A stretch of 38,890 nt of DNA from a virus. Its lineage: Duplodnaviria > Caudoviricetes. This document shows, in pieces, positions 253 through 36,570 of the stretch. Where the stretch lies: the IMG/VR virus record IMGVR_UViG_3300007643_000272, positions 1 to 38,890 of that record, one strand, 5' to 3'. Each line of letters opens with the position of its first letter. Positions within the stretch are counted from its first letter, which is position 1. Made by a program: the position numbers and the translations under genes. Under the pieces are notes generated by a model. The model was not told the origin of the DNA and searched no databases. It saw nothing but the letters and a program-made list of their open reading frames with translations.

Positions 253-330
253 AATCTTTAGTCCTTTCGGTGGGGCGCTGCCCCGTTGTTGATGATTTAT
301 ATATACAGCTTTTTTCCGGCTTTGCAAGTC
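250..330 (-). promoter_or_regulatory. sigma70-like promoter + small hairpin + RBS, copy 1
   Basis: Minus strand TTGCAA-AGCCGGAAAAAAGCTG-TATATA, then a GGGGCAGCGCCCC hairpin and GAAAGGAC...ATG. Near duplicate of 1420-1497. Confidence 0.65.
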
Positions 331-1661: not shown

Positions 1662-1994
1662 TTAGGTCGCGCGGCGAGCCTCCACAGCTGCACGCGCGCG
1701 GGCGAGATGTTCACGCATCTGATTACGGCGAACCTCGAAGTCTTCCTCGGTAGCGCCGCCGGCATCTTGGATCGCTCGCATATCTGCGTTGATGCCGTCC
1801 AGCGCAGCCATGTAATCGGCCGCACCGTCCAACAGAACGTCTTCACCGAACTCAAGCAAATTAGCTGCGAACCGGATCCCTTCAGCGATGGTCGCTGCCA
1901 TAGGCCCGCCGATCGGCACAAAGGTCATAACAGTCGATGCCATGCCCAGCGCTTCGGACGCGCGCGAGATAACCTGACGTGCATTGATATCCAT
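1662..1994 (-). CDS. hypothetical helical protein of the lysis region
   Basis: Starts 1 nt after the lipoprotein stop; last gene before the terminator; mildly hydrophobic N-half and charged C-terminal helix. Confidence 0.65.
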   Translation of the reverse strand: MDINARQVISRASEALGMASTVMTFVPIGGPMAATIAEGIRFAANLLEFGEDVLLDGAADYMAALDGINADMRAIQDAGGATEEDFEVRRNQMREHLARARAAVEARRAT

Positions 1995-1995
1995 C

Positions 1996-2430
1996 TTACG
2001 ATCCTCCGAACAGCGCGCGCAGGGCGGCTATTTGCTTCTCTGCCTCTGCCCACCGCGTCTTGGCATCGGTCGATGCCGCACCGATCAGGATCAGGCCGTC
2101 ACCGATATCTCCGCCGATGGCACCCTGAACGGGATCTTTATAGGCGACATAGACTTGACCGGATTGAGCCACCAGATCGCATGTAGGCTGTAGGCCCTCC
2201 ATACTGATCAGGATGGCTTCGGCGACCGTAAGCGGTGTCGATGGTGATGAAACCACATCCGCTGCGGTCTTGAGCGTTTCTTCACAGACTTCGACACCCG
2301 TCAGTATTTGGACGCCAACATCTGAGATTCCTTCGGCGGGATTGGAAGGCGCTGAGCCGAGACCAAGGCTTGAGCATGATGCGAGCAGCAGCATGGATGC
2401 GGACGAAATGACCGTCATTAGTTTATTCAT
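1996..2430 (-). CDS. lipoprotein, possible outer-membrane lysis (spanin-like) component
   Basis: Signal peptide with lipobox LLAS-C; AGGAG RBS; directly follows the endolysin. Confidence 0.65.
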   Translation of the reverse strand: MNKLMTVISSASMLLLASCSSLGLGSAPSNPAEGISDVGVQILTGVEVCEETLKTAADVVSSPSTPLTVAEAILISMEGLQPTCDLVAQSGQVYVAYKDPVQGAIGGDIGDGLILIGAASTDAKTRWAEAEKQIAALRALFGGS

Positions 2431-2451
2431 TTTAGGCTCCTGTGATTAGGT

Positions 2452-2901
2452 CTACCGATACGGCAGGCCCTTGGTGAAAGGGGTACCGGCCCCCTTCTTC
2501 TGGGTGAGTACCTGACCGCGCAAACGCGGATTGAAACTGATGTGTACGATATTACGGCTCACCTCGAGAATGACTTGATCGAACACCAATGATGATTTGA
2601 CGATCGCCTTCGCGACCGCTAGCGGCGGCATCCCGCGCACTGATATATCAGCAGCGTATCCCTTGGCATGATCGGATGTCGGCACACCGCCCACCGCTTT
2701 ATTGAGCGCCGGTGATCGATACCCGGAGGTCACGCGGATAGACTTGTCGCCAATAATCGAACGCACCTGCTCGAGGCCGAACGCGGTCAAGACCAGATTG
2801 GCTCTATGTCCCGGCCCAGGCTGATTGTTGATGCCGCGCGTCGACGCTGTCTGCGAGCGTGTAAATTCGGCTAGCGTAAAGTGTGGTGTCAGCTGGGTCA
2901 T
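2452..2901 (-). CDS. endolysin, peptidase M15 (Zn D-Ala-D-Ala peptidase fold)
   Basis: LTPHFTLAEF, VTSGYRSPALNKAVGG, SDHAKGYAADI and VHISF motifs. ATG at 2901 overlaps the upstream stop (ATGA). Confidence 0.9.
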   Translation of the reverse strand: MTQLTPHFTLAEFTRSQTASTRGINNQPGPGHRANLVLTAFGLEQVRSIIGDKSIRVTSGYRSPALNKAVGGVPTSDHAKGYAADISVRGMPPLAVAKAIVKSSLVFDQVILEVSRNIVHISFNPRLRGQVLTQKKGAGTPFTKGLPYR

Positions 2902-3119
2902 GCCGGATCTTCCGGCTTCATCTTGGCTTCCCAATTACCTTTGCGGCCCTGCGCGTCTGTGAAGTCTGCGTCCTCACCTTCGACTTGAACCTCGGTAATA
3001 ATCTTGTAGCGCTGCATCATTGGTACCGCCGCGGCGCACGAGACGCTGCGACCATCTTCTAGCTTGATGGTTACTGCTGATTTTTCAGAGTCCTGCCATT
3101 TAACAGATATCGGCGTCAT
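2898..3119 (-). CDS. small hypothetical protein, possible fibre assembly factor
   Basis: Coupled to both the tail fibre and the endolysin; function inferred from position only. Confidence 0.55.
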   Translation of the reverse strand: MTPISVKWQDSEKSAVTIKLEDGRSVSCAAAVPMMQRYKIITEVQVEGEDADFTDAQGRKGNWEAKMKPEDPA

Positions 3120-3122
3120 GGC

Positions 3123-4841
3123 CTAAGCCTCCTGAGTGCAAATCTTGAAGAATAAGAAGCCCAGCGCTGAGCCGCTGGTATTCTTAAATGTGAAGTCGGT
3201 GGTGGTCTTGGCGATGATGTCACCGACCCATGGCCCCTCCATCCGCTCGACAAAATAGTCGGTGGTGCGAGCCTCTTCTGGAAGCGCGATCACCACCTCT
3301 TCGCCGATTGCTGTTGTGGGAGATCGAAGATATTGAGCGACCGTGCCGTTATAATCATGCACGCGCGTGTTTGAGGAATAGTCGCGAACCGCCGGCTTCA
3401 TATCGCTCATAACGATCATCTGGCCTTGACCATCATAAACGAGGTTTAGCGCGCGCTGCTGGGCACCGAAGTAGAACGGCGTGGTGTCGTTCCAAATCTT
3501 ACCTCTGCGATAATCTCGCAAGTTCATGCCGTCAGGCAATTGCAGTTTTGTGCCGGAGGGCTCGCCTGCCACATAGTCAGGCCGGACGCCGGTAGGGCTA
3601 AGCTGGTTAAACCATGTGTTGCCAGCGAACTCGCCGAGGGTGCCAGGGTTTTTAAGCGTGATTGTCGAGGCGCGAACGCGGACGACCGGCGACCGATAAA
3701 TATCGAAGGTTGCGACCGCAGCGTCCTCATTATATTCGATCACCGGCGGCACCAAGCCGAGCTTGCGATCATCGGTGAAGTTACGCGTAATGCCGAACGG
3801 CAGAGGCGAGCCGCGTTGACCAAACACACCTTGCAAGAATCCATCATACAGGCGGCGGGACCGGATCGGCATTTGATCGTTATCAAAATGCGCGTTGTCC
3901 GTGGCAGTCAGGCCATTTGCAGTAACGTAAACGCTGTTCTCGTCATAGCTTGGCATGTCCGAGATAATGTCTTCCCGGTGCCAGCGACCGCCACTCGCGC
4001 GTTCAATATCTGCAAACAGGCCCTCAGACAGAATGATTGTGTCTTCGTCGATCACGTTTGCGGCCTTCAAATTGGCGACCATCTCGATACGCTCTGCCTT
4101 CGCTGAGCTGCCTGCTAGCGGGTTGCTTGAGCTCGTGCGATCAGCGCCGCCCAACGCGATCAAAAGCACGCGCAACGGGCCGAGGCCCGACGCGACGTGG
4201 CGCGCGACAAATTCATCGAAGCCCGGCTGACCAGCCTCTTTCCAAACCGCATGCTCTGAGCCTGGAATGTGGAACGTGACAGAGTCGACGCCGATCGGGT
4301 GCCGACTGACGATTTCATACGCCAGCCACGGAATGATGTGAGCGTCGACGCCGACAAAGTCGCCGAGTCCTGGTACCGGCCTGACCGACCAATCATTTAA
4401 GGTGGTATCCCAGTTGCGATAACTGTGCTTTTCAGGATCCCATGTGGGCCAGACAACACCCATGCCGCGCGAGTCCGGTGCCTCAATCTGAGACTGCCCC
4501 AGAGCGCCAATGCTGATGCGATTATTCCCGCGCGGCTGCAGACGCGGCTTCAAAAAGTCGTTCGTCTTAAGGTAAAGTTCTATCGCATCCTTAAGCAAGT
4601 CGTCGCTAGCCGGATCTTCGTCGACCTTCCCGACAAGCAAACCAGAAAGGTTCGCACCGCGAACTAGGCTTCGTTTATTCGCTAGCATGAAGTTGAGGTC
4701 TTCGGCCGTCAGAACCGTGCCGTCGCCAGCGCCCGGCGCTGAACAGTTGTCGTACCATGTGTCATCATTCGACGTGGAAGGCACGTGCGCCGGGCGCGTG
4801 GTCGTGCGTTTGGAATTTTTGACACCAAAAATATCAGTCAT
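3123..4841 (-). CDS. tail fibre/spike with SGNH (sialate O-acetylesterase-like) domain
   Basis: Follows gp48-like gene; N-terminal baseplate anchor GTVLTAEDLNFM; GALGQSQ (Ser) and TDNAHF (DxxH) motifs. Confidence 0.75.
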   Translation of the reverse strand: MTDIFGVKNSKRTTTRPAHVPSTSNDDTWYDNCSAPGAGDGTVLTAEDLNFMLANKRSLVRGANLSGLLVGKVDEDPASDDLLKDAIELYLKTNDFLKPRLQPRGNNRISIGALGQSQIEAPDSRGMGVVWPTWDPEKHSYRNWDTTLNDWSVRPVPGLGDFVGVDAHIIPWLAYEIVSRHPIGVDSVTFHIPGSEHAVWKEAGQPGFDEFVARHVASGLGPLRVLLIALGGADRTSSSNPLAGSSAKAERIEMVANLKAANVIDEDTIILSEGLFADIERASGGRWHREDIISDMPSYDENSVYVTANGLTATDNAHFDNDQMPIRSRRLYDGFLQGVFGQRGSPLPFGITRNFTDDRKLGLVPPVIEYNEDAAVATFDIYRSPVVRVRASTITLKNPGTLGEFAGNTWFNQLSPTGVRPDYVAGEPSGTKLQLPDGMNLRDYRRGKIWNDTTPFYFGAQQRALNLVYDGQGQMIVMSDMKPAVRDYSSNTRVHDYNGTVAQYLRSPTTAIGEEVVIALPEEARTTDYFVERMEGPWVGDIIAKTTTDFTFKNTSGSALGFLFFKICTQEA

Positions 4842-24270: not shown

Positions 24271-24855
24271 TCAGTACACTTTTACGTGCCGTGATCCCAC
24301 TCTGCGCGCCACTCTGATTAGCTCCTGCTTGGTTTCGTGCTCGATGCGTCGAGGCAGATGTGCGCGCGCCACTTCGTTCACCACCTGTTGTGCATCGGCC
24401 ATAGCTGCCTCCATTGGGATGGCTGGCCCATAGAGCTTCTTGATTGGGAAGCGTGCCGAGCCCTCCCGTTTATAGACGTGGCCGCCCATCTTGCGGTTCA
24501 GGAACGTGCCCTTAAATCTCTGGCGTTTGCCCCACGGGGAAGCAGAAACGCCCCTTCGAGTTTGCCGGGGACGAAATTCTTTCAGGGACAAATATCCGCC
24601 TGTGAATTGCATCTCATAGGTTTGCCGACCGGAGCCACCTGCGTCGGCTCGCTTGGTCCGCATGAACCGGCGTACCGTGGTAGACCGTGCCCCGGATGAT
24701 TTGGCGATGTACCGGACGTGCTGGGTGCGGGCCATAGAGCCAACACGGTTTAGTGCCCGTGCTGTGATCTTGCGTTTGCGGTAGCCACCCATCGACATAT
24801 AGAGCCTCGACAGGTCTTTGATGCCCGCCGTTTCAATATCAATATAGACAGCCAT
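24271..24855 (-). CDS. lambda gpZ-like minor tail/neck protein
   Basis: Very basic; ARALNR, LSLKEF, GGHVYKREG.ARFPIKKLYGPAIP motifs. Confidence 0.8.
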   Translation of the reverse strand: MAVYIDIETAGIKDLSRLYMSMGGYRKRKITARALNRVGSMARTQHVRYIAKSSGARSTTVRRFMRTKRADAGGSGRQTYEMQFTGGYLSLKEFRPRQTRRGVSASPWGKRQRFKGTFLNRKMGGHVYKREGSARFPIKKLYGPAIPMEAAMADAQQVVNEVARAHLPRRIEHETKQELIRVARRVGSRHVKVY

Positions 24856-26199: not shown

Positions 26200-26547
26200 T
26201 TATTTACAAAAGGGCAGCTCTGGCTGCGCCTTACACATTTTAATTTCGGCCTCGACGCTGAAGCCAGCTGGTTTGCCGCGCTCCTGTGCCTCGGTCGTGT
26301 TCTGAGCCGTGCCGGGGCCGTAAGGGTCTCCGGCGTCCTCCGCCATCGGCTGACCGCGCTTGATCGGCTGCTCTGCTTCGGGCTGCGCCTCTGGCGTCTC
26401 GATCGGCTTGATGCCGGACGGGTCGACGCACTCGCAGTGCTCGACCACCTGCTCCTGCTTCAGACCGAAGCCAGGGCCGAAAACTTTGTTGAAGGTTTGG
26501 CAGCCGGTCAGCGTGAGCATGGCGGCGAGGAGGAGGATACGGTACAT
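26200..26547 (-). CDS. lipoprotein
   Basis: MYRILLLAAMLTLTG-C lipobox; AGGAG RBS; four further Cys (CEC and CKAQPELPFC). Confidence 0.75.
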   Translation of the reverse strand: MYRILLLAAMLTLTGCQTFNKVFGPGFGLKQEQVVEHCECVDPSGIKPIETPEAQPEAEQPIKRGQPMAEDAGDPYGPGTAQNTTEAQERGKPAGFSVEAEIKMCKAQPELPFCK

Positions 26548-26557
26548 AGCTTAGCTC

Positions 26558-28786
26558 CTAAGTGCGCGGTGCGTGACCAACGAGCCACTTACGCTTGCCG
26601 CGATATTTGAAAGAATAGTCAATTCCCTTGTGCTCGCAAATATACTCATTGATCGTTTCTACACCTGAGACCTCGTCTACGAAGGTGGTGACGAATGTTG
26701 GCTCTTCCGGCGGTGGAATGTAAATCACACGAGTTCGACCATCTGGATAAGCGCCGCCTGTAAAGGTGGGCGTGGCACCTGAATTGGAAGTGACGTAGAG
26801 ACAAAACTCGCCACCAATGTCGTCGCCGTCGGTGCCCATGTCGTCAGGAATGACAAACAGTGAAGCGCTCGGTGTGAACAGTTGACCGTTTAGCACGAGG
26901 CGTCCGTTGTTCGGCTGAGCGCGCAGATCATAAATCGTGTTGTTGATGTCCTTGCCGTGCATCCTTGAGCCGAGAGACGCGTCGGGCCGAAGCAGTCTGC
27001 GGATTTGGTGGAGCGCCGCGGCCTGGAAGCGACCGCCCTCAAATGACCGTAGAGCCGCCCCTCCTACTTCTTCGCCCCAGTTATGCCGGTTCTCTGGATG
27101 CGAGCCATCGACGGCCGTGTAGCCGGCGCTTGAAGCAACGGCGTGCCGAGGGCCGAGGTCGGCCTGCAAACTCACAATATCGTTCCGGGCCTTTTCGTAG
27201 GATTTCTGACCTGCGTTGGTCCGCAAGCTCTCGTAGCTTACCCACATGCTGTCGGAGTCGCACCAATGCCCCTCGACGCCGTCGAACACGGAAGTGCGGT
27301 TCATAAGTGCCGCGTAAATCTTTTCGCGCATCGACTGGTAGTCTTCTGGCTGCGAGACACCGCCGACCGTCGAAACTAGGTCGTCGTAGCTGAGGCCGAC
27401 ATTTCCGCCGTTTTGGATGTCTGACCAAATGCGGATCTTGCGGAGGCCCGTGAGTTCCATCGTTCGTTCAACTTGGCGGATGAGTTCGTCAAGTAGATGG
27501 TGAATGCCAACTTTTGAACCGGCAGCGGCTGTAACTCCTGCGCCGTTGACAGGGCCGTCGATCGTGTGGACTTCAAACGTTCCGGGCACTGGCGCTGTCG
27601 CCTTGCGGATATCGCCATATACCCACGATGTATTCATCGCATAGTACCAGCCGGTCGGCGACGTGGGAACACCGGTCAGGCCTAGGAGCGTGACCTTCGA
27701 AGCCTTGTTCGTGGTGGTCGCTGCGGCGAGCTTCCGGCAATCGGAAACCGCAATAATTAGCGGATTGCCCGGTGTGATCGAGGTGATCTCCGCCTCGTTT
27801 TCAGCATCGTAAAGGTCGATCGCTTGGCTGCCCTCGGCGACCGTGATCAGTGTGATCCGCCGACCAGTTGCATTATGGCGAGCCTGTGCCTGCCCCAGAT
27901 GGACGCTGTTTAGACCGTTCTTGAATGGCTCGAGGCCCACTGTCACGGGACCAACATCGTCTTGGTCTGGGCGATAGCAGAGGATTGCCGGGCCGGGGTC
28001 TTTACCAACGAAAGTTTGCTTGTATGTCCCGTCGCCCTGATCTTCGATGATCTGATTTTCGTGGCACGGCGTGGTCGTGAAATGCGGTTCGCCGTTCTGC
28101 TTGATGACAAACTCATTCGCCGTCGCATAGACGATAGACTGGCCGATCATCACCGACAATTCTTCTTCGCCTGCTGGCCCATGCCAACGTCCCGGTGCGG
28201 CGTCGGCTATGGTGACCGGTTTGATCGTGCCGAAGCCCCCATCGTCTCTGCGAAGTGATTCCGCATACCAAATCCACAGGCCTTGGCCTGCGCGGGGGGT
28301 GTCTCCGGGAGTTTGGCGATAGTTGCAAATGTACCCGCTGCGGACTTTATCAGCCCCGCCATCGAGACTGCGCAGGTCCATTGATCTGCCCAGCATTCCG
28401 ACCGCGTGCAGGTCGCGGCCAAGCTCGGCTAGGTTATTTCCGGCGGACGGAGGGTTGGAAATCAGACGCTTCAAGTCCTCTGCGCGTGCATTCAGGCGGT
28501 CTACTTCGCGGTTGAGCCCTGGCTCGGTGACGCCGTCTTTGGCACTAGACAAGTGAGTGGTGTCGCGCCAAATTTTGACGTCTACACCAGCGACGCCTGC
28601 TTTAAGCGTGATGACGCCGCCCATCCATGCCTCACCTACCACGTTTGGCGCATGATCGAATTCTTCAATCTTGAGGATTGTTCCGCCGACGTCGACGCGC
28701 AAGTCCTCTTTGTCAAAATACTCCCAGTCAAAATCGAGCGGGCCTGTGCCGACAAATGCTGTGAAGAGTTTCTCAAAATCAGCCAT
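26558..28786 (-). CDS. tail fibre/spike: T7 gp17-like N-terminal anchor + SGNH acetylesterase-like domain
   Basis: FDWEYFDKEDLRVDV..VKIWRDT anchor; GQGLWIW..DDGG..GRW tailspike head motif; MIGQSI and VDGSHP catalytic motifs. Confidence 0.72.
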   Translation of the reverse strand: MADFEKLFTAFVGTGPLDFDWEYFDKEDLRVDVGGTILKIEEFDHAPNVVGEAWMGGVITLKAGVAGVDVKIWRDTTHLSSAKDGVTEPGLNREVDRLNARAEDLKRLISNPPSAGNNLAELGRDLHAVGMLGRSMDLRSLDGGADKVRSGYICNYRQTPGDTPRAGQGLWIWYAESLRRDDGGFGTIKPVTIADAAPGRWHGPAGEEELSVMIGQSIVYATANEFVIKQNGEPHFTTTPCHENQIIEDQGDGTYKQTFVGKDPGPAILCYRPDQDDVGPVTVGLEPFKNGLNSVHLGQAQARHNATGRRITLITVAEGSQAIDLYDAENEAEITSITPGNPLIIAVSDCRKLAAATTTNKASKVTLLGLTGVPTSPTGWYYAMNTSWVYGDIRKATAPVPGTFEVHTIDGPVNGAGVTAAAGSKVGIHHLLDELIRQVERTMELTGLRKIRIWSDIQNGGNVGLSYDDLVSTVGGVSQPEDYQSMREKIYAALMNRTSVFDGVEGHWCDSDSMWVSYESLRTNAGQKSYEKARNDIVSLQADLGPRHAVASSAGYTAVDGSHPENRHNWGEEVGGAALRSFEGGRFQAAALHQIRRLLRPDASLGSRMHGKDINNTIYDLRAQPNNGRLVLNGQLFTPSASLFVIPDDMGTDGDDIGGEFCLYVTSNSGATPTFTGGAYPDGRTRVIYIPPPEEPTFVTTFVDEVSGVETINEYICEHKGIDYSFKYRGKRKWLVGHAPRT

Positions 28787-28875
28787 CAAGGGCTCCGCTG
28801 GATATGACGATGAATAGGGCCGTTCCCGCTAATGCCAGGCAAAGCAGCAACAGCCCCATCTCGATTTGATCTGTG

Positions 28876-29349
28876 TTATTCCGAAGGTGTTTCATTAGCT
28901 TCCAGCGGAGCGCCGGTCGGATCTTCCATCGCGCCTTCAATGACGCCAATCAGAAGGCCTGCTAATGGGTGGGCTTTGAGCGCCGTCTTTGCCGCTCGGA
29001 ATGCAATAGGTGCAACTTTAGGTGCCGCGCGTTTCAGGAAGCCAAGGGAGGCGCGCAGCGTGGACTGTATCGGTGTGGTTTGGTCTTCAGGTACCGGCTC
29101 GGCCTCGACAGCTGTCTGGATACGCACGATAGCGTCGGTGACAGATGGGTCGCCTTCATGATCGGCTGCGGCCTGTGCCAGCGCCTCTTCAAATGTTGAC
29201 GGTTGGTCACTGCCCATGTCGATATCGCCGTGCATGTCACCCTCGACATTGACGTTCTTGGATTTATCGATCGTTTGAGCCACATCGCCGTGTACGTCGC
29301 CGCCGATGCTCATGTTAAATCCGCCGGATGTTTTTTCGTCACCGGTCAT
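28876..29349 (-). CDS. putative amyloid-motif-controlled helical effector
   Basis: N-terminal pseudo-repeats MSIGGDVHGDVAQT and VNVEGDMHGDIDMG; C-terminal amphipathic/hydrophobic helices ending HPLAGLLIGVIEG; ATGA-coupled to the upstream gene. Confidence 0.6.
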   Translation of the reverse strand: MTGDEKTSGGFNMSIGGDVHGDVAQTIDKSKNVNVEGDMHGDIDMGSDQPSTFEEALAQAAADHEGDPSVTDAIVRIQTAVEAEPVPEDQTTPIQSTLRASLGFLKRAAPKVAPIAFRAAKTALKAHPLAGLLIGVIEGAMEDPTGAPLEANETPSE

Positions 29350-29391
29350 GTCTTTTCCTTTTTGATAGTTTGAGCCACATCGCCGTGGACG
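29269..29391. repeat. direct repeat encoding VHGDVAQTI in two adjacent genes
   Basis: Exact 20-mer gtttgagccacatcgccgtg at 29273-29292 and 29368-29387; the flanking mismatches are synonymous third positions. Confidence 0.95.
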
Positions 29392-29741
29392 CTGCCTTGA
29401 ATGTCTGTCCGGTCGCCCGTGTTCACCTGAACGCTGGATTTATTCGCCGCCGCAGCCATGGCATCGAGCCGGCCTTGCATTCCTGACAGGCCTTTGATCA
29501 TCTTGGTCATGGTCGCTATCTGTTGGCGATCCGCCTCTATGCGATCCTTGCGCTCTTGCTCGCGGCGATTGCGTTCTTCACGCCTATACTCGAGCATTTC
29601 TTGACGATCGATGATCATCCGTTCGCGGTCTCTTATCGCGCCTTCAATGTGCGCGCGGACGTCGCCCGTCAAATTGGCTAGATCTTTGCGAATGTCGGTG
29701 ACCTGATCCATGGCCAGTTTCAACATTATTTCGGCGCTCAT
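29346..29741 (-). CDS. coiled-coil adaptor with C-terminal amyloid-like motif
   Basis: E/R-rich long helix followed by SSVQVNTGDRTDIQGSVHGDVAQTI; ATGA overlaps at both ends. Confidence 0.65.
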   Translation of the reverse strand: MSAEIMLKLAMDQVTDIRKDLANLTGDVRAHIEGAIRDRERMIIDRQEMLEYRREERNRREQERKDRIEADRQQIATMTKMIKGLSGMQGRLDAMAAAANKSSVQVNTGDRTDIQGSVHGDVAQTIKKEKT

Positions 29742-30565
29742 AGATCTTTCTCAAGGTCATCGACCATGGCCTGCATCGCTTCGAGTTCGCTCATAACTTT
29801 GTCTTCAACAATTGGCGGTGAGGGGGCAGGTTCAGGAGGGTTATTTGGTGGCGGGACTGGCGTCGGGGCAGGCTGCGATTGGTCGCCCGGCACTGGTTCC
29901 GTTTCGGCCTCTGGCAGAATTTCGTCAGGCTGCAGCGGCGGCACAGGGACCGGCTCGACAACTTCCACAGGCGCTGGCTCGTCGGTCTTGACGGGCAGAG
30001 CCACCTGATCAATATTTTTCTTAGTCTCTCGCACACCGTCAAGCATAGCGAGGACGGCTTCTAACAAATCATACTTCTTTAGCTCTTCGGCCAATCGCGC
30101 ATGCTGCCCTACCTCGCCGAAGTCGGATGGCAAGTTCACAAAGCCGAAAACCATCTTACGATTGTGGTCGTGTTTGTTCAGGCAGAACGTCTCGCAGAAG
30201 CTGTCGCTAAATGGCTTCAGGCATATGCGAGCCGCAACCTTGCTACCGTCAGCGTGCTTAAACTCGAAGGCTCGGAAGTCGCGCGCCTCGAGCGCTTTGC
30301 TTACGGTGTTGCCGAGCTCGCCATAGCGTTTGACATAGCCCGGATGATTTTCGTGCAAGTAATCAGGCAGGACCGTATTGAAGTCCAAACCGATCAGTCT
30401 GTCGCCTGGCTCATGGCCAAGTTTCTCTGCGAGACGCGGATCGAAGCCGATAATCTTGTGGTCGTAACCAATCGCCACTGGGTAGCACGGCATGTTTCCA
30501 AAGACGAACTTCGCGACCTCAAGGGAGTAAGAATCGTCAGGATTTGTCCAAGTCACATTAATCAT
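29738..30565 (-). CDS. FixL-like heme-PAS domain protein with Pro-rich linker
   Basis: LIGLDFNTVLPDYLHENHPGYVKRY aligns without gaps to FixL AIGQNVNILMPEPDRSRHDSYISRY (recalled); also KHADGS and FGFV; no kinase domain. Confidence 0.8.
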   Translation of the reverse strand: MINVTWTNPDDSYSLEVAKFVFGNMPCYPVAIGYDHKIIGFDPRLAEKLGHEPGDRLIGLDFNTVLPDYLHENHPGYVKRYGELGNTVSKALEARDFRAFEFKHADGSKVAARICLKPFSDSFCETFCLNKHDHNRKMVFGFVNLPSDFGEVGQHARLAEELKKYDLLEAVLAMLDGVRETKKNIDQVALPVKTDEPAPVEVVEPVPVPPLQPDEILPEAETEPVPGDQSQPAPTPVPPPNNPPEPAPSPPIVEDKVMSELEAMQAMVDDLEKDL

Positions 30566-30644
30566 AGAGTTGCCCGTATTGATGCTGGGCGTTCGTGTGG
30601 ACCGTAGACGCTGCCCAGACGTTTCGGAAATATGGATCAGGTCA

Positions 30645-30941
30645 CTAAGTGATCCGCTCGATCAAAAAGGCCCACACTGGAAGCCAGCCGTGGCCAGCCG
30701 CTATGCCTGCGATAAAGTAAATAGGACGCGCACGGCCTCGAGAGGCGCGCACCTTGTCGGTCTTTGCCGCTTCCTTCTCGACGGAAGCTACACCGAGCGC
30801 GATGGCCTTGGCCTTCGCAGCTTCCGCATTCTCAGTGCGAGCGCGTTCAGCCAACACATCGGCGTCACGCTGAGCCAGCTGACGATAGAGTTTTTGCTCC
30901 TTGCCACCTAATGCGGTCAATTTGCGCGGAGGCTTAGACAT
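30645..30941 (-). CDS. small membrane protein (coiled coil + C-terminal hydrophobic segment)
   Basis: PIYFIAGIAAGHGWLPVWAFLI tail; overlaps the upstream gene by 8 nt. Confidence 0.65.
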   Translation of the reverse strand: MSKPPRKLTALGGKEQKLYRQLAQRDADVLAERARTENAEAAKAKAIALGVASVEKEAAKTDKVRASRGRARPIYFIAGIAAGHGWLPVWAFLIERIT

Positions 30942-31122
30942 TATTTTGATCTACTGAGACCGGTGACGCGGTGTCCTCGGCGGAGCTGTCGTCACGCATT
31001 GAATCTTTTGCAATTCTGGCCGCGTTCTTCGCTTTGCCAAATACTCGCTTAATCATGGCCAGCCGGCGAATGATGACGTCTGCGACCAGGATGGACAGAG
31101 CGATGAATAGAATGAAGTTCAT
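30934..31122 (-). CDS. small membrane protein (N-terminal TM, basic then acidic tail), holin-like candidate
   Basis: MNFILFIALSILVADVII followed by RRLAMIKRVFGKAK; AGGGA RBS. Confidence 0.6.
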   Translation of the reverse strand: MNFILFIALSILVADVIIRRLAMIKRVFGKAKNAARIAKDSMRDDSSAEDTASPVSVDQNNV

Positions 31123-31194
31123 GTTTTTTATCCCTATTGTAGTTTGTATTTTCTTACTGTTGGCACGTCAGAGGATGGTGTAATCGGGCATGGG

Positions 31195-31797
31195 TTAGAT
31201 GCGCTCCAATTCGATAAAGCCCGCATGGCAGCGGACATAATAATTCGTGCTAGGCGTCGTAGACGCACCTGCTACGCCGAGCGTCAGCATGTCTCCGGCT
31301 GGCACCACGTTCTCAGCATTGCCGCTCAAATCAATATCCGTAAGCTGTCGGATAGTGGTTGCATAATTATTGTAACCTGCTGCGCCTGTGGCGGTGACTT
31401 GATCGAGGACATAAGTCGTCGTGCGCGTTGCAGATCCGCCGGACCAAGTCTGCTTTGCTAATACCCATGCCCAAGAGATTGCAGCGTTTGCATTTGAGTT
31501 GGTGTGATGTACGAGCAACCGCTTGACACGAACGTCATATGGCAGCACGACGCCGCCCGTGCTGGTGGCTAGGTTAGTCGCGCCTGCATTACCCAAGTCG
31601 TTCGTGTGGCGGTCATCCAGTCTGCCCCGCACACCCCAGCCGTTGATCTCGCCGGGATCGATCAGGAACTCACCGCCAAGCATGATCGGCGGGTGCCATG
31701 TTGAGCTAACCCCGCTTTCTTGAATGTCTGTGACTGCGGCCTGAGTGGTAGCGACATCGGCTAAGAGACGTTCAGCAAGGGTGGTGTAATCGGTCAT
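31195..31797 (-). CDS. putative fibre tip / receptor-binding protein
   Basis: N-terminal heptad helix followed by a Thr/Gly/Asn-rich beta domain; follows the collar-domain fibre. Confidence 0.5.
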   Translation of the reverse strand: MTDYTTLAERLLADVATTQAAVTDIQESGVSSTWHPPIMLGGEFLIDPGEINGWGVRGRLDDRHTNDLGNAGATNLATSTGGVVLPYDVRVKRLLVHHTNSNANAAISWAWVLAKQTWSGGSATRTTTYVLDQVTATGAAGYNNYATTIRQLTDIDLSGNAENVVPAGDMLTLGVAGASTTPSTNYYVRCHAGFIELERI

Positions 31798-31813
31798 GGA
31801 TTAGACGCGCCAC

Positions 31814-33739
31814 CTACGCTTTATTGCCGTAGACAGTCCATGAGATAGTGCCTGCCCCCGTGCCCACGTCGTCCAAGATTGTGACCGGACAGTTTGTAGC
31901 TGTGCGAGTCCCTTCCTGCGCCGTGCAGCGCTGGCTGGCAGATGTGCCGCTCCCAGTCACGGTCGTATGCAGTGCGTAGCCCGCCTGAAGTGCCACGCCC
32001 CAATCAAGGGTCGCGTTCGGGTTCGCGGCAATGCGCCCATGCCGAACAAAGTCATAGTCAACATCAGGCCCGGCGCTTGCTGCTGGGGCGTCTGTGAATG
32101 TCGCTGTGCCATCGCCGTTCGGCGTCAGGACTCTGGTTGTGTCGGCTTCGTTCGGATTGGTAATCGTTAGGGTGCCCGGCTCAACCATGATCGTCTTGGC
32201 ATAGCTGTCCAGCACCAGCACGAACTGCATGGCGAAGTTATGTGGTCGTGTTTCTGGGTCAGCCGATGACATGCCAACGCCGTTATTGGCCGCGCCTGTA
32301 AGACTTCCACTACCCTTGCCAAAATCGTTGTTACTTTGTCCGTTCCAATCGGATTGAACGTATGTTCTTAACGTCCGCAGCCCATTGACCGCCGTGCCGT
32401 CAGCCTGCGACGCCATGAACGCGGCAGCATTGCCACCAAGGTTACGAATGAACCTACCGTCAAATGTGCTCGGCACCGTCAGATCATCGCCGATCACGAA
32501 GGTCGGGAACATCGCTGCAAACTTCGGATTATCTACGGCACCGTTCGTGAGGCTATAGCCGTTAATTAGAGGCAGCAGCCCCTCAGCCACATAATCAGCA
32601 GGAAACTTAGCCGTTCCGTCAGTTTTTACATTTGGCACTGCCTTGAAAGCGCCAATCTCATTGGCTGCAATCGTGGTGTAGATTTCAACCTTATTCCAGA
32701 AACCAGTCGCAGCATCATCAGCGGCATCGCCAGACGTTGCGCCAAGAGTGAACACATACCAGTCTGCACCGACGCGGCGGGTCTCGCCATCACGGGCCGT
32801 CAGAGCAGTAAGCTCTGCAAGCGTTGCCACAGGTGCGCCGCGCAGTCCTTCAGGCTCATCATTTGGCGTGCCAATGCCAAAGCGAGACAGGCGCGGCTTG
32901 ACCGCAAGCAGTTCGGCCTCGGTGCCGTTTGGCACCTCTGTATCGAGGATGGTTTCGCCGGTGTTGATGACCCAATTAAACCACGTCTGATAATCTGGAT
33001 CAGCAGGATCAGGCTCCGGCGCAGAGAACACAGTGCCCTCTGTGTACTCGGTCGCTTCAAGAAACGTTGCGGCCTGATCGGATGCCTCAACCGTCTGGCT
33101 CGTTGTCCAGTAAAGCGGATCAGTGATGGCCGCAACGTTGGTAAAGCTGTCGTTGTAGTTCGTGCCCTGATAGGTGACGATCACGCCCTGCGATGAGCCG
33201 CCATTGGCAGGTGTTGCATTGATTGCAGACAGGCCGTTCGGGAACTTGCCCGTGTAGTAGAACTTGACCGTTCCCGCCTTGTTGCGGCCAAGACCGATCG
33301 TGCCGTTGAACAGAGCCTTATCCGTAATGATCGTAGCCGTGCCACCCGAGTACTGAACGAGGTTGGCGTCATACACCCAATCGCCGGGCGGGTATGAATT
33401 GCCGTCATTATCGACGAACTCCAGCCCGACATTTGAGCCAGCATTCGTGCCGGCAGAGCGAAGCGTTACCTCGATATAATTCAGAACCAGCGTTTGCGGG
33501 TCTTTAGATCCGAAGTTGAACCAATCGTCATTCGGCACACCGTTTGCAGGGAATGCCGCAGTCGTCGCGGTTCGGCGCGCCCATAGTTCTTCCGTGCTTC
33601 GGATAAATACAGCGCTATCGGCTGGTATAGTTTCAGCCGCCGGAGCCGCGTAATCGTCGAAGTAGAGCAGGCGCACATCCGGCGCATCCGCCTCATCGGG
33701 AACAACAAAAGTCAGTGGGCCTTCATTGATGTCTGGCAT
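31814..33739 (-). CDS. fibre protein with tail-collar-like domain
   Basis: IGAF..LINGYSL..PKFAAMF..DGRFIRN..SQAD..ETRPHNFAMQF collar signature; VATLAELTAL..DG head motif; C-terminal ISWTVYG beta domain. Confidence 0.75.
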   Translation of the reverse strand: MPDINEGPLTFVVPDEADAPDVRLLYFDDYAAPAAETIPADSAVFIRSTEELWARRTATTAAFPANGVPNDDWFNFGSKDPQTLVLNYIEVTLRSAGTNAGSNVGLEFVDNDGNSYPPGDWVYDANLVQYSGGTATIITDKALFNGTIGLGRNKAGTVKFYYTGKFPNGLSAINATPANGGSSQGVIVTYQGTNYNDSFTNVAAITDPLYWTTSQTVEASDQAATFLEATEYTEGTVFSAPEPDPADPDYQTWFNWVINTGETILDTEVPNGTEAELLAVKPRLSRFGIGTPNDEPEGLRGAPVATLAELTALTARDGETRRVGADWYVFTLGATSGDAADDAATGFWNKVEIYTTIAANEIGAFKAVPNVKTDGTAKFPADYVAEGLLPLINGYSLTNGAVDNPKFAAMFPTFVIGDDLTVPSTFDGRFIRNLGGNAAAFMASQADGTAVNGLRTLRTYVQSDWNGQSNNDFGKGSGSLTGAANNGVGMSSADPETRPHNFAMQFVLVLDSYAKTIMVEPGTLTITNPNEADTTRVLTPNGDGTATFTDAPAASAGPDVDYDFVRHGRIAANPNATLDWGVALQAGYALHTTVTGSGTSASQRCTAQEGTRTATNCPVTILDDVGTGAGTISWTVYGNKA

Positions 33740-33748
33740 GACAGTCCC

Positions 33749-34396
33749 CTACGGCCCAGTCTGCGGAGCACGCAGATTGTAAGTAAATTCGTAAGTCGGC
33801 GGATCAATCGCGGCATTTGTGCCGTTTTCGAGATAGATCGTGAGCGTGTCAGCGGCAGTCACGTCACCCCACATCGTCAGACCTTGCAGCGAACTGTCAG
33901 CTACGAGTTCCACGAACATGCCGGGCGTCGCACCCGTAACAGCTACCGGGCGCTCGCGGCGCTGCCCCGCATTTAGCGTGGCTGCATTCCAATTGTGTGT
34001 GCCGATCAAATCAATCAGGCCTAGCTTTGTCTTGATGTTGTTCCGCGAGGTGTCAACATCGAGGACGGCGTTATCAAAGGCATCGCGGAGAACTTGGCTA
34101 CTGATCGCCAACGGCACGCGGTCGCCGTTTGCGGTATAGACAAACACAAAGGCCCGTTCGTCAGGTTTTCCGTTAGGCGTGATGATAACCACGCGCACTT
34201 CGCCCGCAGCGCCCGTGGCGTCCGCCGACGCCACCAATGGCATAAGCGGCGCGCGAGGTACCGGAGCGCCACCGGTATTGACCACATATTCAGTTATGCT
34301 GCCGCTCGCTTCCAGCACATCGTAACGATGGCCGGAAGTGAACGTGGACAGCGCGTCAAACTCTGCGCGCGTGACGCGATGCCAAGAAATAGACAT
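33749..34396 (-). CDS. putative fibre/virion appendage subunit
   Basis: N-terminus similar to 34403-34882; C-terminal VAVTGATPGMFV..VTAADTLTIYLENGT..IDP domain typical of spike termini. Confidence 0.6.
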   Translation of the reverse strand: MSISWHRVTRAEFDALSTFTSGHRYDVLEASGSITEYVVNTGGAPVPRAPLMPLVASADATGAAGEVRVVIITPNGKPDERAFVFVYTANGDRVPLAISSQVLRDAFDNAVLDVDTSRNNIKTKLGLIDLIGTHNWNAATLNAGQRRERPVAVTGATPGMFVELVADSSLQGLTMWGDVTAADTLTIYLENGTNAAIDPPTYEFTYNLRAPQTGP

Positions 34397-34402
34397 GGGG
34401 CG

Positions 34403-34882
34403 CTACCAGGTCTCGGTGCTGTAGCCGACAGTCGCCACCGTAATCGGCGTCGGATCTGTGGTCGTTTGCGCATTGCCGTCGCCGTCAGTCCAAGTAATTT
34501 CCACAAGGAACTCGTTCGCGCCGCCGCCTGCTTTTAGGTCGATGCCCGTAATCGCTGTGTGAGCAACACCAGTCAAGCCAGTGTTCAATTCCTCAAGCGC
34601 GGCCTTCACGTTCGTTGCTGTCATTCCTGACGCAACATTGTCAAAGCTAGTGCCAGCAGCGGTCTGGTCAATGCCTGCAAGCGCAGCGGTGATCGCCGCC
34701 GAAATTGCAGCGGCAGATGCAGCCGATGTTACGGCGTCCAGTTTGCGTGGTGTGCCGCCAGTATCGGTGACATAGACGGCTTCAAGGCCGTCATTTGCGC
34801 CGTTTGACTCAAAGTAAATGTGGCCTGCTGTGGCCGTGCCGGGCACGGCCCCATTGGCTACGCGGTGAAAGTCTAGTGCCAT
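34403..34882 (-). CDS. putative fibre/virion appendage subunit
   Basis: FDNVASGMTATNVKAALEEL trimeric-fibre motif; ends in GYSTETW. Confidence 0.65.
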   Translation of the reverse strand: MALDFHRVANGAVPGTATAGHIYFESNGANDGLEAVYVTDTGGTPRKLDAVTSAASAAAISAAITAALAGIDQTAAGTSFDNVASGMTATNVKAALEELNTGLTGVAHTAITGIDLKAGGGANEFLVEITWTDGDGNAQTTTDPTPITVATVGYSTETW

Positions 34883-34886
34883 GGTT

Positions 34887-35552
34887 TTACCATCCTTCAG
34901 TTAGGTAATTTAGATCAGCTGCGGTATCTGTTCCACCTGAACCACCAACGTTCACTGGAAACAATTTCCCAAATCGGTAGTGGTAAAGATCGTTGCGGGC
35001 CTCGTCGGCCTCGGAATGAATAAGCAAATAGCTCTTGCCGTCTTCCAGCGTCAGCGTACCTGCTGTGACCGCTGCTGCGGCGTCGGCGAATGTCCCAAAG
35101 GCGGGTATCTCGGTCGACGGCACGTCAGGGACAGCGACAGAGATCGCAAAATCCCACTGACCACCATTGGTCAGATACACACCGCGAGGATATTGCGGGT
35201 TTTCTGCGTCGCCGGTGCCAATATCGTCGGCTGTCAACCAGGTCGAAAAGGTCGTCGTCGCGTCGGCCTCTGCCGGGATGGCAGGCAGACCAGCATAGGT
35301 ATCGGCAAACGGCCGCAGCATCTGACCGGTGACGTCCAGATTATCTATGTCATTGCGCAGCTGGCCAAGGGCGATCGCAAGCGCTGCCTTTTCCGCCGCG
35401 CTGGTGTGGATATCGTCGTCGCTGGTATGATCCGCCGGGCCGACATTGTCCCAGCCATACACGCCGTCAGATATCACCCTAGCCACGACGAAGTCGCCGA
35501 AGCGATCGCCTTCCTGCAGGCCCAGCTGTTTTAAGGACGTTGCCTTAACCAT
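34887..35552 (-). CDS. putative fibre/virion appendage subunit
   Basis: Acidic; HTSDDDIHTSAAEK fibre motif, ADTYAGLP..GVY..GGQW; ends in NYLTEGW. Confidence 0.6.
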   Translation of the reverse strand: MVKATSLKQLGLQEGDRFGDFVVARVISDGVYGWDNVGPADHTSDDDIHTSAAEKAALAIALGQLRNDIDNLDVTGQMLRPFADTYAGLPAIPAEADATTTFSTWLTADDIGTGDAENPQYPRGVYLTNGGQWDFAISVAVPDVPSTEIPAFGTFADAAAAVTAGTLTLEDGKSYLLIHSEADEARNDLYHYRFGKLFPVNVGGSGGTDTAADLNYLTEGW

Positions 35553-35555
35553 AAC

Positions 35556-36110
35556 CTAAGCCGCTGTAGACCAGTAAGCGGCCATCTGGCCAGCGTCAGC
35601 GCCGAGCGCGATATGCTTGCCGCGAAGGCTCTCTGTCGGATCGTTCAGCACAATGGCCTCGGTGCCAGAGCGCACGGTCGTCGGATCCGGCAGATCGGCA
35701 TACGTGTTGTAGCCGAGCGCTTTGATGTCGCCTTCCACCCAGTCCGTCCCATTGTAGCGATCGGTGCGGTCGATGTCGTCAATGTAGACGCGCTGGCCGG
35801 TCTCGACTTCCGTCAGGGCGTCGCGCGCAGCCACATTGGCCTCGCTAACTTCATAGTTCTCGACCTCATAAACACCGTCGTTGACGACATAGACCAGACC
35901 ATTGCTTGAAGTCTTTACCCGATAGCCGTCTGATTTGGTCGCCACGTCGGGGCGGTCTGCTTTCGTTGCCACGGTGTCGTGCAGGTCGGTTGCAACCGCA
36001 GCCGGAGCAAAACCATAGTGCATATCAGCGAAGACATGGACCACCACGTCGCCGTTGATGGTGTCACCGATTGCGCCGCCTGGCGCATTGCGAGATGCGA
36101 GAATTGCCAT
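35556..36110 (-). CDS. putative fibre/virion appendage subunit
   Basis: ANVAARDAL..GQRVYI..RYNGTDW small fibre domains; C-terminal domain paralogous to 36130-36570; ATG at 36110. Confidence 0.6.
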   Translation of the reverse strand: MAILASRNAPGGAIGDTINGDVVVHVFADMHYGFAPAAVATDLHDTVATKADRPDVATKSDGYRVKTSSNGLVYVVNDGVYEVENYEVSEANVAARDALTEVETGQRVYIDDIDRTDRYNGTDWVEGDIKALGYNTYADLPDPTTVRSGTEAIVLNDPTESLRGKHIALGADAGQMAAYWSTAA

Positions 36111-36129
36111 AATAAATTGCCCTGTTGGT

Positions 36130-36570
36130 TTAAGATTGCAGGCGGTAGTAAACCGCCATGGAGCCCTTCGGCGCACCGAGCGCCAAGTGCTGACCGGTCA
36201 GCGCGCCATCATCGACAACGGTGACCAGAGTGCCGACCTCAATCGTCGCCGGATTGGGCGCGTCTTGCAGGCGGTTATAGACATGATCGGAGGATGGCAC
36301 CGATGCTTCAATTAAATTTTTAGCGGTCAGCGCGGCATGCGTGGTGCCTGTGTTGAGCGTGATTGGCCCGGCCGTGGTGTTTTGAAACCGGATCAGCGTA
36401 TCGGATGCCATTGTCCATTCACCAACGCCGACGACTGTGGTCGCGTCGCCGACCGGGGTGCGGCCCTTGAGGTCTGCAACACCTGTTCGCGCAACCGCAT
36501 CGACGGTACCGCCTCCGCCGGGTGCGGAGGCCCCGCCGGATGTCCAGAAAGGATGGCGACGGTTAAGCAT
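36130..36570 (-). CDS. putative virion appendage subunit
   Basis: GGAG RBS; DAVAR motif; C-terminal domain shared with the downstream gene. Confidence 0.55.
   Translation of the reverse strand: MLNRRHPFWTSGGASAPGGGGTVDAVARTGVADLKGRTPVGDATTVVGVGEWTMASDTLIRFQNTTAGPITLNTGTTHAALTAKNLIEASVPSSDHVYNRLQDAPNPATIEVGTLVTVVDDGALTGQHLALGAPKGSMAVYYRLQS

What the first reader, a model, noticed from the sequence alone, without database searches (positions are those of the whole stretch)
28876..31122. Candidate new system: phage heme-PAS sensor -> coiled-coil adaptor -> amyloid-motif membrane effector (gas-gated lysis or death switch)
Seen: three translationally coupled genes encoding a FixL-like PAS protein with no enzymatic output, a coiled-coil protein ending in VHGDVAQTI, and a protein starting with the same motif and ending in hydrophobic helices. 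Two small TM genes precede them. Each protein's C-terminus resembles the next one's N-terminus. Established: fungal NWD2/HET-S, mammalian RHIM and bacterial NLR-associated amyloid motifs signal by templating a shared short motif between receptor and effector (adjacent genes in the fungal and bacterial cases), triggering membrane damage; FixL PAS senses O2 through heme. Inference: a phage-encoded relay coupling oxygen, redox or heme status to membrane permeabilisation, i.e. environmentally timed lysis (no holin is visible by the endolysin) or abortive defence by the prophage. I know of no described PAS-amyloid relay in a phage, but could not search.
Basis: partly seen in the sequence, partly recalled or inferred. 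Interest (0 to 1): 0.92.

Follow-up and report, generated by a model that had tools for sequence, protein, structure and literature searches.

The report
Phage gene pair shares amyloid-like tag
Two overlapping genes of a dormant bacterial virus carry the same short peptide tag at their facing ends, which likely lets the two proteins stack together as in amyloid-controlled cell-death switches; they sit beside a likely heme-binding sensor gene whose link to them is untested.

Summary
The window is a provirus (lambda-like head, Mu-like tail). The three genes exist and overlap by 4 nt.

The tag shared by gene 2 (C-end) and gene 3 (N-end) is real: score 65 against at most 43 in 2209 control pairs, with a codon pattern pointing to selection. 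Gene 3 belongs to a small unnamed family (9 homologs aligned). The tag is its best-kept part, followed by a helical domain related to a TCAD2-labelled protein. The PAS gene resembles DosP/FixL (E 0.002) and keeps the heme-ligand His.

The PAS-to-gene-2 resemblance is not significant (p 0.07-0.10). Gene 3 has amphipathic, not transmembrane, helices. A missed 38-aa transmembrane gene follows gene 3.

No second locus was found, so co-conservation and co-variation are untested. Best reading: a tag-coupled, amyloid-signalling-like pair in the late operon, probably acting at the membrane (0.33). The full gas-gated relay gets about 0.12. Interest 0.5.

The parts
29738..30565 (-). Gene 1, 275 aa: stand-alone DosP/FixL-like PAS domain (about residues 20-130; His74), a helix (150-185), a Pro/Glu-rich linker and a short amphipathic C-terminal helix; no enzymatic output; no clear Shine-Dalgarno before the ATG
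   Evidence: only itself among 874 candidates
29346..29741 (-). Gene 2, 131 aa: long helical protein with a 60% charged core (residues 37-78), ending in the tag
29359..29396 (-). Tag copy at the C-terminus of gene 2 (core GSVHGDVAQTI)
28876..29349 (-). Gene 3, 157 aa: N-terminal tag in two pseudo-repeats 20 residues apart (residues 9-43), then a five-helix domain (53-142) related to a TCAD2-labelled protein, with basic amphipathic helices at its end
29264..29301 (-). Tag copy at the N-terminus of gene 3 (core GDVHGDVAQTIDKS); the second pseudo-repeat is at about 29224-29246
28779..28895 (-).
   Evidence: no Pfam or PHROG hit
30934..31122 (-). 62-aa ORF with an N-terminal hydrophobic helix, preceded by an A-rich 72-nt gap
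30645..30941 (-). 98-aa Ala-rich helical ORF with a borderline hydrophobic C-terminus

Best explanation
Genes 2 and 3 carry the same tag at their facing ends and likely form a tag-coupled pair, in which the long helical gene-2 protein would cluster its tails and template the two-repeat tag of gene 3 into a beta-stacked (amyloid-type) assembly, likely freeing gene 3's amphipathic helices to act at the host membrane late in infection, while the neighbouring PAS protein is a likely heme or small-ligand binder whose control of the pair is untested. SHOWN: gene layout, shared tag, its conservation in gene-3 homologs, the helical C-terminal domain and its relation to a TCAD2-labelled protein, PAS similarity with His74 kept, and position in the co-directional run upstream of terminase. 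INFERRED: co-assembly through the tag (about 0.7), amyloid fold (about 0.5), membrane action (about 0.4), late expression (about 0.7). It works like Bab/Agp or HET-S/NWD2 but back to front and without an NLR or Bell domain. The 38-aa and 62-aa transmembrane ORFs may be its membrane partners.
For: 1. Tag score 65 against at most 43 in 2209 control pairs.
2. 13 of 17 codons keep the residue despite 14 nucleotide differences, 10 of them packed into 4 codons; neutral-simulation P 0.0003 on a window chosen after the fact.
3. Gene 2's tag matches its own neighbour best, 12 of 15 against 5-11 for the 8 other tag-bearing homologs, including a His that only this locus has.
4. Residues 9-43 of gene 3 are 63% identical across 9 homologs against 12-19% for residues 44-143.
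5. Tag composition is Q/N/G/V/I 0.51-0.52 against 0.29 and K/P/L 0.04-0.06 against 0.16, the bias reported for BASS motifs; overlapping collinear genes and two-fold pseudo-repeats are also reported for BASS pairs.
6. A profile of the C-terminal domain alone scores the TCAD2-positive protein P0012 at 25-28 bits against at most 9 for 500 shuffles.
7. Atlas look-alikes are 130-160-aa cyanobacterial/Chloroflexota hypothetical proteins (25 of 30 hits) and TCAD2 proteins (5 of 30), scores 0.90-0.91.
8. The last three helices have hydrophobic moments of 1.36-1.38, two of them basic.
Against: 1. Single locus: 7 viral, 2 metagenome and 1 genome-collection scans gave no true relative with context, so co-variation in homologous pairs is untested.
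2. The homologs were found largely through the tag, which inflates its apparent conservation.
3. No transmembrane segment in gene 3; only 1 of 9 homologs exceeds hydropathy 1.6.
4. No pore-former stood out in fold searches, and the fold is a generic helical bundle.
5. Gene 3 has no TCAD2 match itself, and I found no paper giving TCAD2 a function.
6. Published effectors carry the tag at the C-terminus behind a hydrophobic N-terminal helix.
7. 9 of 13 shared residues use identical codons (5.7 expected, p 0.05), and another junction repeat with no signalling role lies 2 kb away, so local duplication is at work here.
Confidence: 0.33

Rival explanations
1. Decoy or counter-defence: the phage carries copies of a host signalling tag, and a possibly disarmed tag-plus-helical-domain protein, to soak up or mis-template a host amyloid-type death switch.
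For: Gene 3 resembles stand-alone bacterial tag-plus-helical proteins. It has no transmembrane segment. Gene 2 is little more than a long helix displaying the tag. The Bab/Agp preprint notes that viral and bacterial pathogens use RHIM motifs as counter-defence.
Against: The two phage tags match each other better than any outside homolog, which suits a private pair. The host is unknown and no host protein with this tag was found.
Confidence: 0.2
2. Structural or assembly role: the tags are beta-solenoid/beta-helix strands that join genes 2 and 3 into a fibre or virion accessory, or that act in its assembly.
For: Location in the co-directional run before terminase, after several unannotated beta-rich-looking genes. 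The tag gives weak tblastn matches to cyanophage gp5 beta-helix repeats (best E 0.06), and 1 of 10 family members touches Gp5_C at E 3.2.
Against: Those matches are chance-level. Two or three short repeats are few for a fibre. No PHROG or BFVD match. The C-terminal domain links to bacterial, not virion, proteins.
Confidence: 0.15
3. One reading: the heme-PAS protein reads O2, redox or heme status, binds gene 2 through its C-terminal helix, and gates tag assembly and membrane permeabilisation (lysis timing).
For: His74 aligns with DosP His77, the proximal heme ligand, and Arg98 with distal Arg97 in the HMMER alignment. The three genes are translationally coupled. The PAS tail is heptad-like (a/d hydrophobic 0.86) and faintly resembles gene 2's start at DNA level (24 of 45 nt, p 0.04, post hoc). 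A DosP PAS query finds 0 of 50,697 phage records, so this gene is an unusual acquisition. No clear holin lies beside the endolysin.
Against: Protein-level junction similarity is not significant (p 0.065-0.10). The same His is present in all 4 reference PAS domains aligned, two of them not known as heme sensors, and the Arg shifts by one in the MAFFT alignment. Met95 and Asp40 equivalents are absent. No FNR-type box lies near the genes. A 14-bp inverted repeat brackets the PAS gene, which would fit a separate insertion. The 62-aa and 38-aa single-TM ORFs are simpler holin candidates.
Confidence: 0.12
4. Lysogen-expressed abortive-infection cassette protecting the host from other phages.
For: The record is a provirus. 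Bab/Agp and three homologs sit in prophage hotspots. An A-rich gap precedes the 62-aa gene.
Against: Same strand, GC (0.54-0.57) and GC3 (0.56-0.63) as the structural genes. No consensus promoter in that gap. No recognisable phage sensor; the only PADLOC match among 9 proteins is a coiled-coil-level one at E 0.009.
Confidence: 0.1
5. By-product of a local duplication: gene 2 picked up a copy of gene 3's start and the match has no function.
For: 84% DNA identity over 38 nt; excess of identical codons (p 0.04-0.05); a second junction repeat at 31172-31204 / 31778-31810.
Against: Differences fall at synonymous sites or pile into 4 codons. The resemblance extends upstream of the DNA repeat to a stretch shared with homolog P0011.
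Confidence: 0.1

Closest known systems
Bab/Agp (BASS11) abortive-infection system of E. coli ECOR25 (bioRxiv 10.1101/2024.11.07.622273; parts 1, 3 and 4 of 8 read)
   Same: Adjacent genes sharing a roughly 20-residue tag at the C-terminus of the first and the N-terminus of the second; prophage location; a small helical domain with one tag.
   Different: In Bab the helical killing domain is N-terminal with a hydrophobic first helix and the tag is C-terminal; the N-terminal tag is on a 1094-aa TPR-GreA/B-PIN sensor. Here the small helical domain follows an N-terminal tag, the C-terminal tag is on a charged helix, and no TGP or NLR is present.
Bell/NLR pairs with BASS1-10 motifs (bioRxiv 10.1101/2020.01.06.895854; parts 2 and 3 of 10 read) and fungal HET-S/NWD2
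   Same: Overlapping collinear genes; tag length and composition; two pseudo-repeats in one partner and essentially one in the other.
   Different: No Bell, NB-ARC or NACHT domain; the pseudo-repeats are on the N-terminal-tag partner; phage late region rather than a multicellular bacterium's chromosome; match to the published logos could not be tested.
TCAD2 (Pfam PF19971) and unnamed 130-160-aa cyanobacterial/Chloroflexota proteins
   Same: Beta-rich N-terminal stretch followed by a helical domain ending in amphipathic helices; profile link to TCAD2-positive P0012 (hhalign 93%; C-domain alone 25-28 bits).
   Different: Gene 3 and all 9 aligned homologs lack a TCAD2 match of their own; no function for TCAD2 was found in print.
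Effector-associated domains (EADs) of Kaur et al. 2020 (PMC7159879; section 30 and passages read)
   Same: A duplicated element in adjacent genes, closer to its neighbour's copy than to others, proposed to couple proteins homotypically.
   Different: EADs are small folded domains, mostly helical, tied to NTPase ternary systems; here the element is a short beta-type tag with no such core.
Heme-PAS oxygen sensors DosP and FixL (PMC4263535; passages read)
   Same: PAS sequence similarity (E 0.002); proximal His and the following Tyr kept; distal Arg possibly kept.
   Different: No phosphodiesterase or kinase output; Met95 and Asp40 not kept; under the Pfam and NCBIfam thresholds; encoded by a phage.

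Membership tests
BASS amyloid-signalling pair (Bell/NLR, Bab/Agp) | Adjacent collinear genes, overlapping or within about 10 bp | tested here: met
   4-nt overlap; feature
BASS amyloid-signalling pair (Bell/NLR, Bab/Agp) | Shared 20-25-residue motif at the C-terminus of one partner and the N-terminus of the other | tested here: met
BASS amyloid-signalling pair (Bell/NLR, Bab/Agp) | Motif rich in Q/N/G/V/I, poor in K/P/L | tested here: met
   0.51-0.52 against 0.29; 0.04-0.06 against 0.16
BASS amyloid-signalling pair (Bell/NLR, Bab/Agp) | C-terminal-motif partner is a Bell/HeLo-type bundle with a hydrophobic N-terminal helix, or a TIR/CHAT/hydrolase effector | tested here: not met
   Gene 2 top hydropathy 0.49, 60% charged core, long-helix matches only; no Pfam family
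BASS amyloid-signalling pair (Bell/NLR, Bab/Agp) | N-terminal-motif partner is an NB-ARC/NACHT NLR or a TGP protein | tested here: not met
   Gene 3 is 157 aa with no such domain; none among the 47 window proteins scanned
BASS amyloid-signalling pair (Bell/NLR, Bab/Agp) | Match to a BASS1-11 signature | not testable with these tools
   The logos are figures and the preprints' supplements are closed
BASS amyloid-signalling pair (Bell/NLR, Bab/Agp) | Motif co-varies within pairs across loci | tested here: inconclusive
   One-sided only: gene 2 is closest to its own neighbour; no second locus obtained
BASS amyloid-signalling pair (Bell/NLR, Bab/Agp) | Amyloid formation, templating and cell death | not testable with these tools
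   Needs bench work
TCAD2 (PF19971) | Score over the curated cut-off of 27 bits | tested here: not met
   No match in the window; 0 of 10 aligned members; only the distant relative P0012 passes, 78.7 bits
Heme-PAS O2 sensor (FixL/DosP) | PAS domain of the FixL/DosP type | tested here: met
   7 of 8 PDB matches, best E 0.0023; 15 of 20 plasmid records with a match carry a PAS or DosP annotation there, 5 none; weak, below family cut-offs
Heme-PAS O2 sensor (FixL/DosP) | Proximal His heme ligand | tested here: met
   His74 on His77 in both alignments; also present in two reference PAS domains not known to bind heme
Heme-PAS O2 sensor (FixL/DosP) | Distal Arg that stabilises bound O2 | tested here: inconclusive
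   Arg98 on Arg97 by HMMER, one column off by MAFFT
Heme-PAS O2 sensor (FixL/DosP) | Enzymatic output domain | tested here: not met
Heme-PAS O2 sensor (FixL/DosP) | Heme and gas binding | not testable with these tools
   The single-sequence model was unusable, pLDDT 36
Holin or pore-forming membrane effector (gene 3) | At least one transmembrane helix | tested here: not met
   Top 19-residue hydropathy 1.27
Holin or pore-forming membrane effector (gene 3) | Fold shared with Bell/HeLo/MLKL-type domains | tested here: inconclusive
   Best Z 8.6 among generic helical bundles, no Foldseek match at E<=0.001

The most novel reading that the evidence does not exclude
A phage has wired a stand-alone heme-PAS sensor to a back-to-front amyloid-signalling pair, so that oxygen or heme status sets when a TCAD2-like helical effector, with a small transmembrane partner, breaches the host membrane: gas-gated lysis timing.
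Probability: 0.12. Interest if true: 0.92.

Novelty: new variant of a known kind. Interest (0 to 1): 0.5.

Why it matters
If the tags co-assemble, this is an unnamed amyloid-type signalling motif used by a phage in its own late region, with no NLR or Bell domain and with reversed polarity. It would also give a first testable role to the TCAD2-like helical domain, whose relatives are common in cyanobacteria and Chloroflexota. If the PAS protein gates the pair, a phage would be timing host death by oxygen or heme, which my literature searches did not turn up. The module is three to six short genes, so it is cheap to test in a laboratory E. coli strain. For now it rests on one locus.

Tried and rejected
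HOMOLOG SEARCHES. The PAS protein (residues 1-190) found only itself among 874 candidates, and gene 3 alone only itself among 118. Gene 2 had no homolog search of its own in the large protein sets; it gave no match in 'phages', no usable atlas hit and a one-member cluster.

CONTEXT. Seven scans of viral contigs and two of metagenome contigs returned no locus. The genome scan returned 3 loci, all three mid-protein matches in unrelated frames of 700-3244 codons, which I dropped as chance. In 401 genomes of one phylum, TCAD2 matched 0 of 401 with no control ringing, and the family profile matched 1 of 401 at E 0.006 with a stop inside, dropped as chance. Two Nostoc plasmids gave 0 of 2. tblastn of P0011, P0006, P0012 and P0008 in phages or plasmids found nothing. 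No sequencing run was listed.

STRUCTURE. The gene-3 model (pLDDT 68; helices 53-142 good, tag unresolved) matched no known fold clearly. The PAS model was unusable. The complex predictor was not available, so nothing was folded.

REJECTED. (1) A chain of homotypic links across all three genes (p 0.065-0.10). (2) FNR/FixK control: 2 boxes against 0.96 expected, none near the genes (consensus recalled). (3) Gene 3 as a transmembrane protein. (4) TCAD2, Bell or NLR membership. (5) The profile's PDB matches to the helical E2 region of amyloid precursor protein (E about 0.8-2.6), which are chance-level.

LITERATURE. 'TCAD2' and its long name gave no relevant paper, and it does not occur in the main text or 2 supplementary files of PMC7159879 or the main text of PMC8195603. 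PMC12261475 and PMC12881547 were read as passages only and added nothing specific.
Full report
SETTING. The window is a whole virus record classed as a provirus, about 57% complete, from a contig of 55,728 bases. The main genes run on the minus strand. They include a lambda-type terminase, portal, protease, decoration and capsid, a Mu-type sheath, tube, tape measure and baseplate, and a peptidase-M15 endolysin at 2452-2934. The phage has no close relative: the capsid's best match is 44% identical and the terminase finds no locus among viral contigs. The host is unknown. The finding lies in a run of about 13 kb of unannotated genes between 38119 and a neck gene at 24855, on the same strand as the terminase and upstream of it. 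GC (0.54-0.57) and GC3 (0.56-0.63) of the trio match the structural genes. I infer late-operon expression; no transcript data were available.

THE OBSERVATION. The three ORFs exist and each overlaps the next by 4 nt. The tag shared by gene 2's C-terminus and gene 3's N-terminus scores 65. That is the best of 47 adjacent junctions (next 29) and above all 2209 non-adjacent end pairs (max 43); 0 of 20,000 shuffles reach it. The PAS/gene-2 junction scores 27, p 0.065-0.10 depending on window, with a faint DNA-level excess (24 of 45 nt, p 0.04, chosen after the fact). The claimed chain of resemblances therefore holds for one junction of two. Gene 3 has no transmembrane segment (1.27). The 62-aa ORF has one (2.21) and the 98-aa ORF is borderline (1.59).

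THE TAG. Over 17 codons, 13 residues are identical and 14 of 51 bases differ. Four differences are synonymous and ten sit in four codons. Random placement of 14 changes keeps 13 residues in 0.03% of trials (simple model, window chosen after the fact). Nine of the 13 shared residues use the same codon against 5.7 expected (p 0.05; p 0.04 by recoding). I read this as a common DNA origin followed by selection on the peptide. Gene 3 holds a second pseudo-repeat 20 residues on. Both tags show the Q/N/G/V/I-rich, K/P/L-poor bias that Dyrka et al. report for BASS motifs (10.1101/2020.01.06.895854, parts 2-3 read). I could not compare them with the published logos, which are figures; the preprints' supplements are closed and may bear on this.

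THE GENE-3 FAMILY. A search of 1.84 billion representatives gave 5 homologs at E<=0.001 besides the query. A profile of these added 5 more at E<=1 among 7991 candidates. I aligned 9 of the 10 homologs and kept P0012 (E 0.58) apart as a test case. Eight of the 9 carry the tag core; P0010 keeps only the helical domain. Identity to gene 3 is 63% over residues 9-43 and 12-19% over residues 44-143, partly because the search favoured the tag. Gene 2's tag matches its own neighbour at 12 of 15 positions and the 8 other tagged homologs at 5-11, and the His in VHGD is found only at this locus. This is half of a co-variation test. The C-terminal domain is a five-helix bundle (pLDDT 70-90 over most of 53-142) whose last helices are amphipathic, two of them basic. 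A profile of that domain alone scores P0012's C-terminal part at 25-28 bits against at most 9 for 500 shuffles; leaving gene 3 out, it scores gene 3 at 19.7 against 8.0. P0012 is a clear TCAD2 (PF19971) protein. The atlas gives the same neighbourhood: 25 of 30 hits are unnamed 130-160-aa proteins, the rows shown mostly cyanobacterial or Chloroflexota, and 5 of 30 are TCAD2, at 0.90-0.91, a level that shuffled proteins reach 4-10 times in 100. Gene 3 and its 9 homologs do not match TCAD2 themselves. I found no paper on TCAD2's function; its link to conflict systems rests on the Pfam name and my recall. Three homologs lie on contigs of 35.6, 47.8 and 61.7 kb, which is phage-sized but not shown to be phage.

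NO SECOND LOCUS. Seven viral, two metagenome and one genome-collection scans, 401 sampled genomes and two cyanobacterial plasmids gave no true relative with flanking DNA. The three loci and the one were dropped as chance.

THE PAS GENE. Seven of 8 PDB matches are DosP or FixL entries, best E 0.0023. His74 and Tyr77 align with DosP His77 and Tyr80. His77 is the proximal heme ligand, and Arg97 is named as the distal gas-binding residue in reference titles (PMC4263535, passages). Arg98 falls on Arg97 in the HMMER alignment and one column off in MAFFT; Met95 and Asp40 are not kept. All four reference PAS domains carry the His, including two not known to bind heme, so heme binding is likely rather than shown. 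The domain is below Pfam and NCBIfam thresholds, and the single-sequence model failed. A DosP PAS query finds 0 of 50,697 phage records at E<=0.001, so a PAS of this type is rare in cultured phages. No FNR-type box lies near it. A perfect 14-bp inverted repeat brackets it (29698-29711 and 30632-30645), which may mark a separate insertion or be chance.

MECHANISM. Most likely the two tags stack, gene 2's long helix serves as the clustering nucleator, and gene 3's amphipathic helices are released to the membrane, perhaps with the 38-aa or 62-aa peptides, late in infection (0.33). Layout, tag, selection signal and domain kinship are shown; stacking, amyloid fold, membrane action and timing are inferred. 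Rivals are a decoy against a host tag system (0.2), a structural or assembly role (0.15), the full PAS-gated relay (0.12), lysogen defence (0.1) and idle duplication (0.1). A 33-nt repeat of the 200-aa gene's start just after its stop shows that junction duplications without a signalling role occur nearby.

COMPARISON. It works like Bab/Agp (10.1101/2024.11.07.622273, parts 1, 3, 4 of 8 read) and Bell/NLR pairs in layout and tag. It is not a member: no Bell-type effector carries the C-terminal tag and no NLR or TGP carries the N-terminal one. Amyloid signalling in prophages is therefore already known; the reversed polarity, the partner domains and the PAS neighbour are what is new. The logic also recalls EAD coupling (PMC7159879, section 30). 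Searches for a phage PAS/heme/lysis link listed one paper, unrelated by title and abstract start, and 96 loose matches of which 12 were listed, none on this. Searches on amyloid motifs and phage listed 8 and 3 papers, none describing this arrangement by title or abstract start. Earlier AI notes from this scan describe reversed tag pairs and phage tag decoys in other genomes; they are unchecked leads, not support.

VERDICT. A real and selected shared tag, a small new protein family and an unusual phage PAS gene, all at a single locus. New variant of a known kind; interest 0.5. The gas-gated version has probability about 0.12 and would rate about 0.9.

Noticed in passing
window 28779-28895 (-): Unlisted 38-aa single-transmembrane ORF overlapping gene 3 and the 743-aa gene; holin-like or membrane-partner candidate.
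   Followed up: partly
window 29698-29711, 30632-30645, 30003-30013: Perfect 14-bp inverted repeat bracketing the PAS gene, with a third related 11-bp copy inside it (the pattern was taken from the repeats, so the count is not a test).
   Followed up: partly
window 31172-31204 and 31778-31810: 33-nt direct repeat (88%): the start of the 200-aa gene recurs just after its stop as a 7-codon stub, as if a paralogous gene had been deleted or swapped.
   Followed up: no
window 30566-30665 (-): The PAS reading frame stays open for about 32 codons upstream of its ATG and overlaps the end of the 98-aa gene, and the ATG lacks a clear Shine-Dalgarno; a non-standard start or an old fusion is possible.
   Followed up: no
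window 26558-28789 (-): 743-aa protein with no Pfam, PHROG, NCBIfam, PADLOC or phage-record match, followed by a 115-aa lipoprotein-like ORF (26200-26547).
   Followed up: partly
window 31195-36570 (-): Seven unannotated ORFs (146-641 aa), Gly/Ala/Thr/Asp-rich and fibre- or decoration-like by eye, placed upstream of the terminase rather than with the tail genes.
   Followed up: no
window 1662-2934 (-): The endolysin is followed by a lipoprotein-like 144-aa ORF and a 110-aa ORF with an amphipathic Gly/Ala-rich start; no clear holin beside them.
   Followed up: partly
window 261-330 and 1429-1497: Two pairs of 27-28-nt direct repeats about 1167 nt apart, near the starts of the last two ORFs; possible shared promoter or operator block.
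   Followed up: no
window 3873-3886: One perfect FNR/FixK-type box (consensus recalled) inside the 572-aa gene after the baseplate genes; overall count at chance level.
   Followed up: partly
P0010 and P0004: Two homologs share a very similar C-terminal domain but P0010 has a different beta-rich N-terminal stretch, hinting that tags are swapped on this domain.
   Followed up: no
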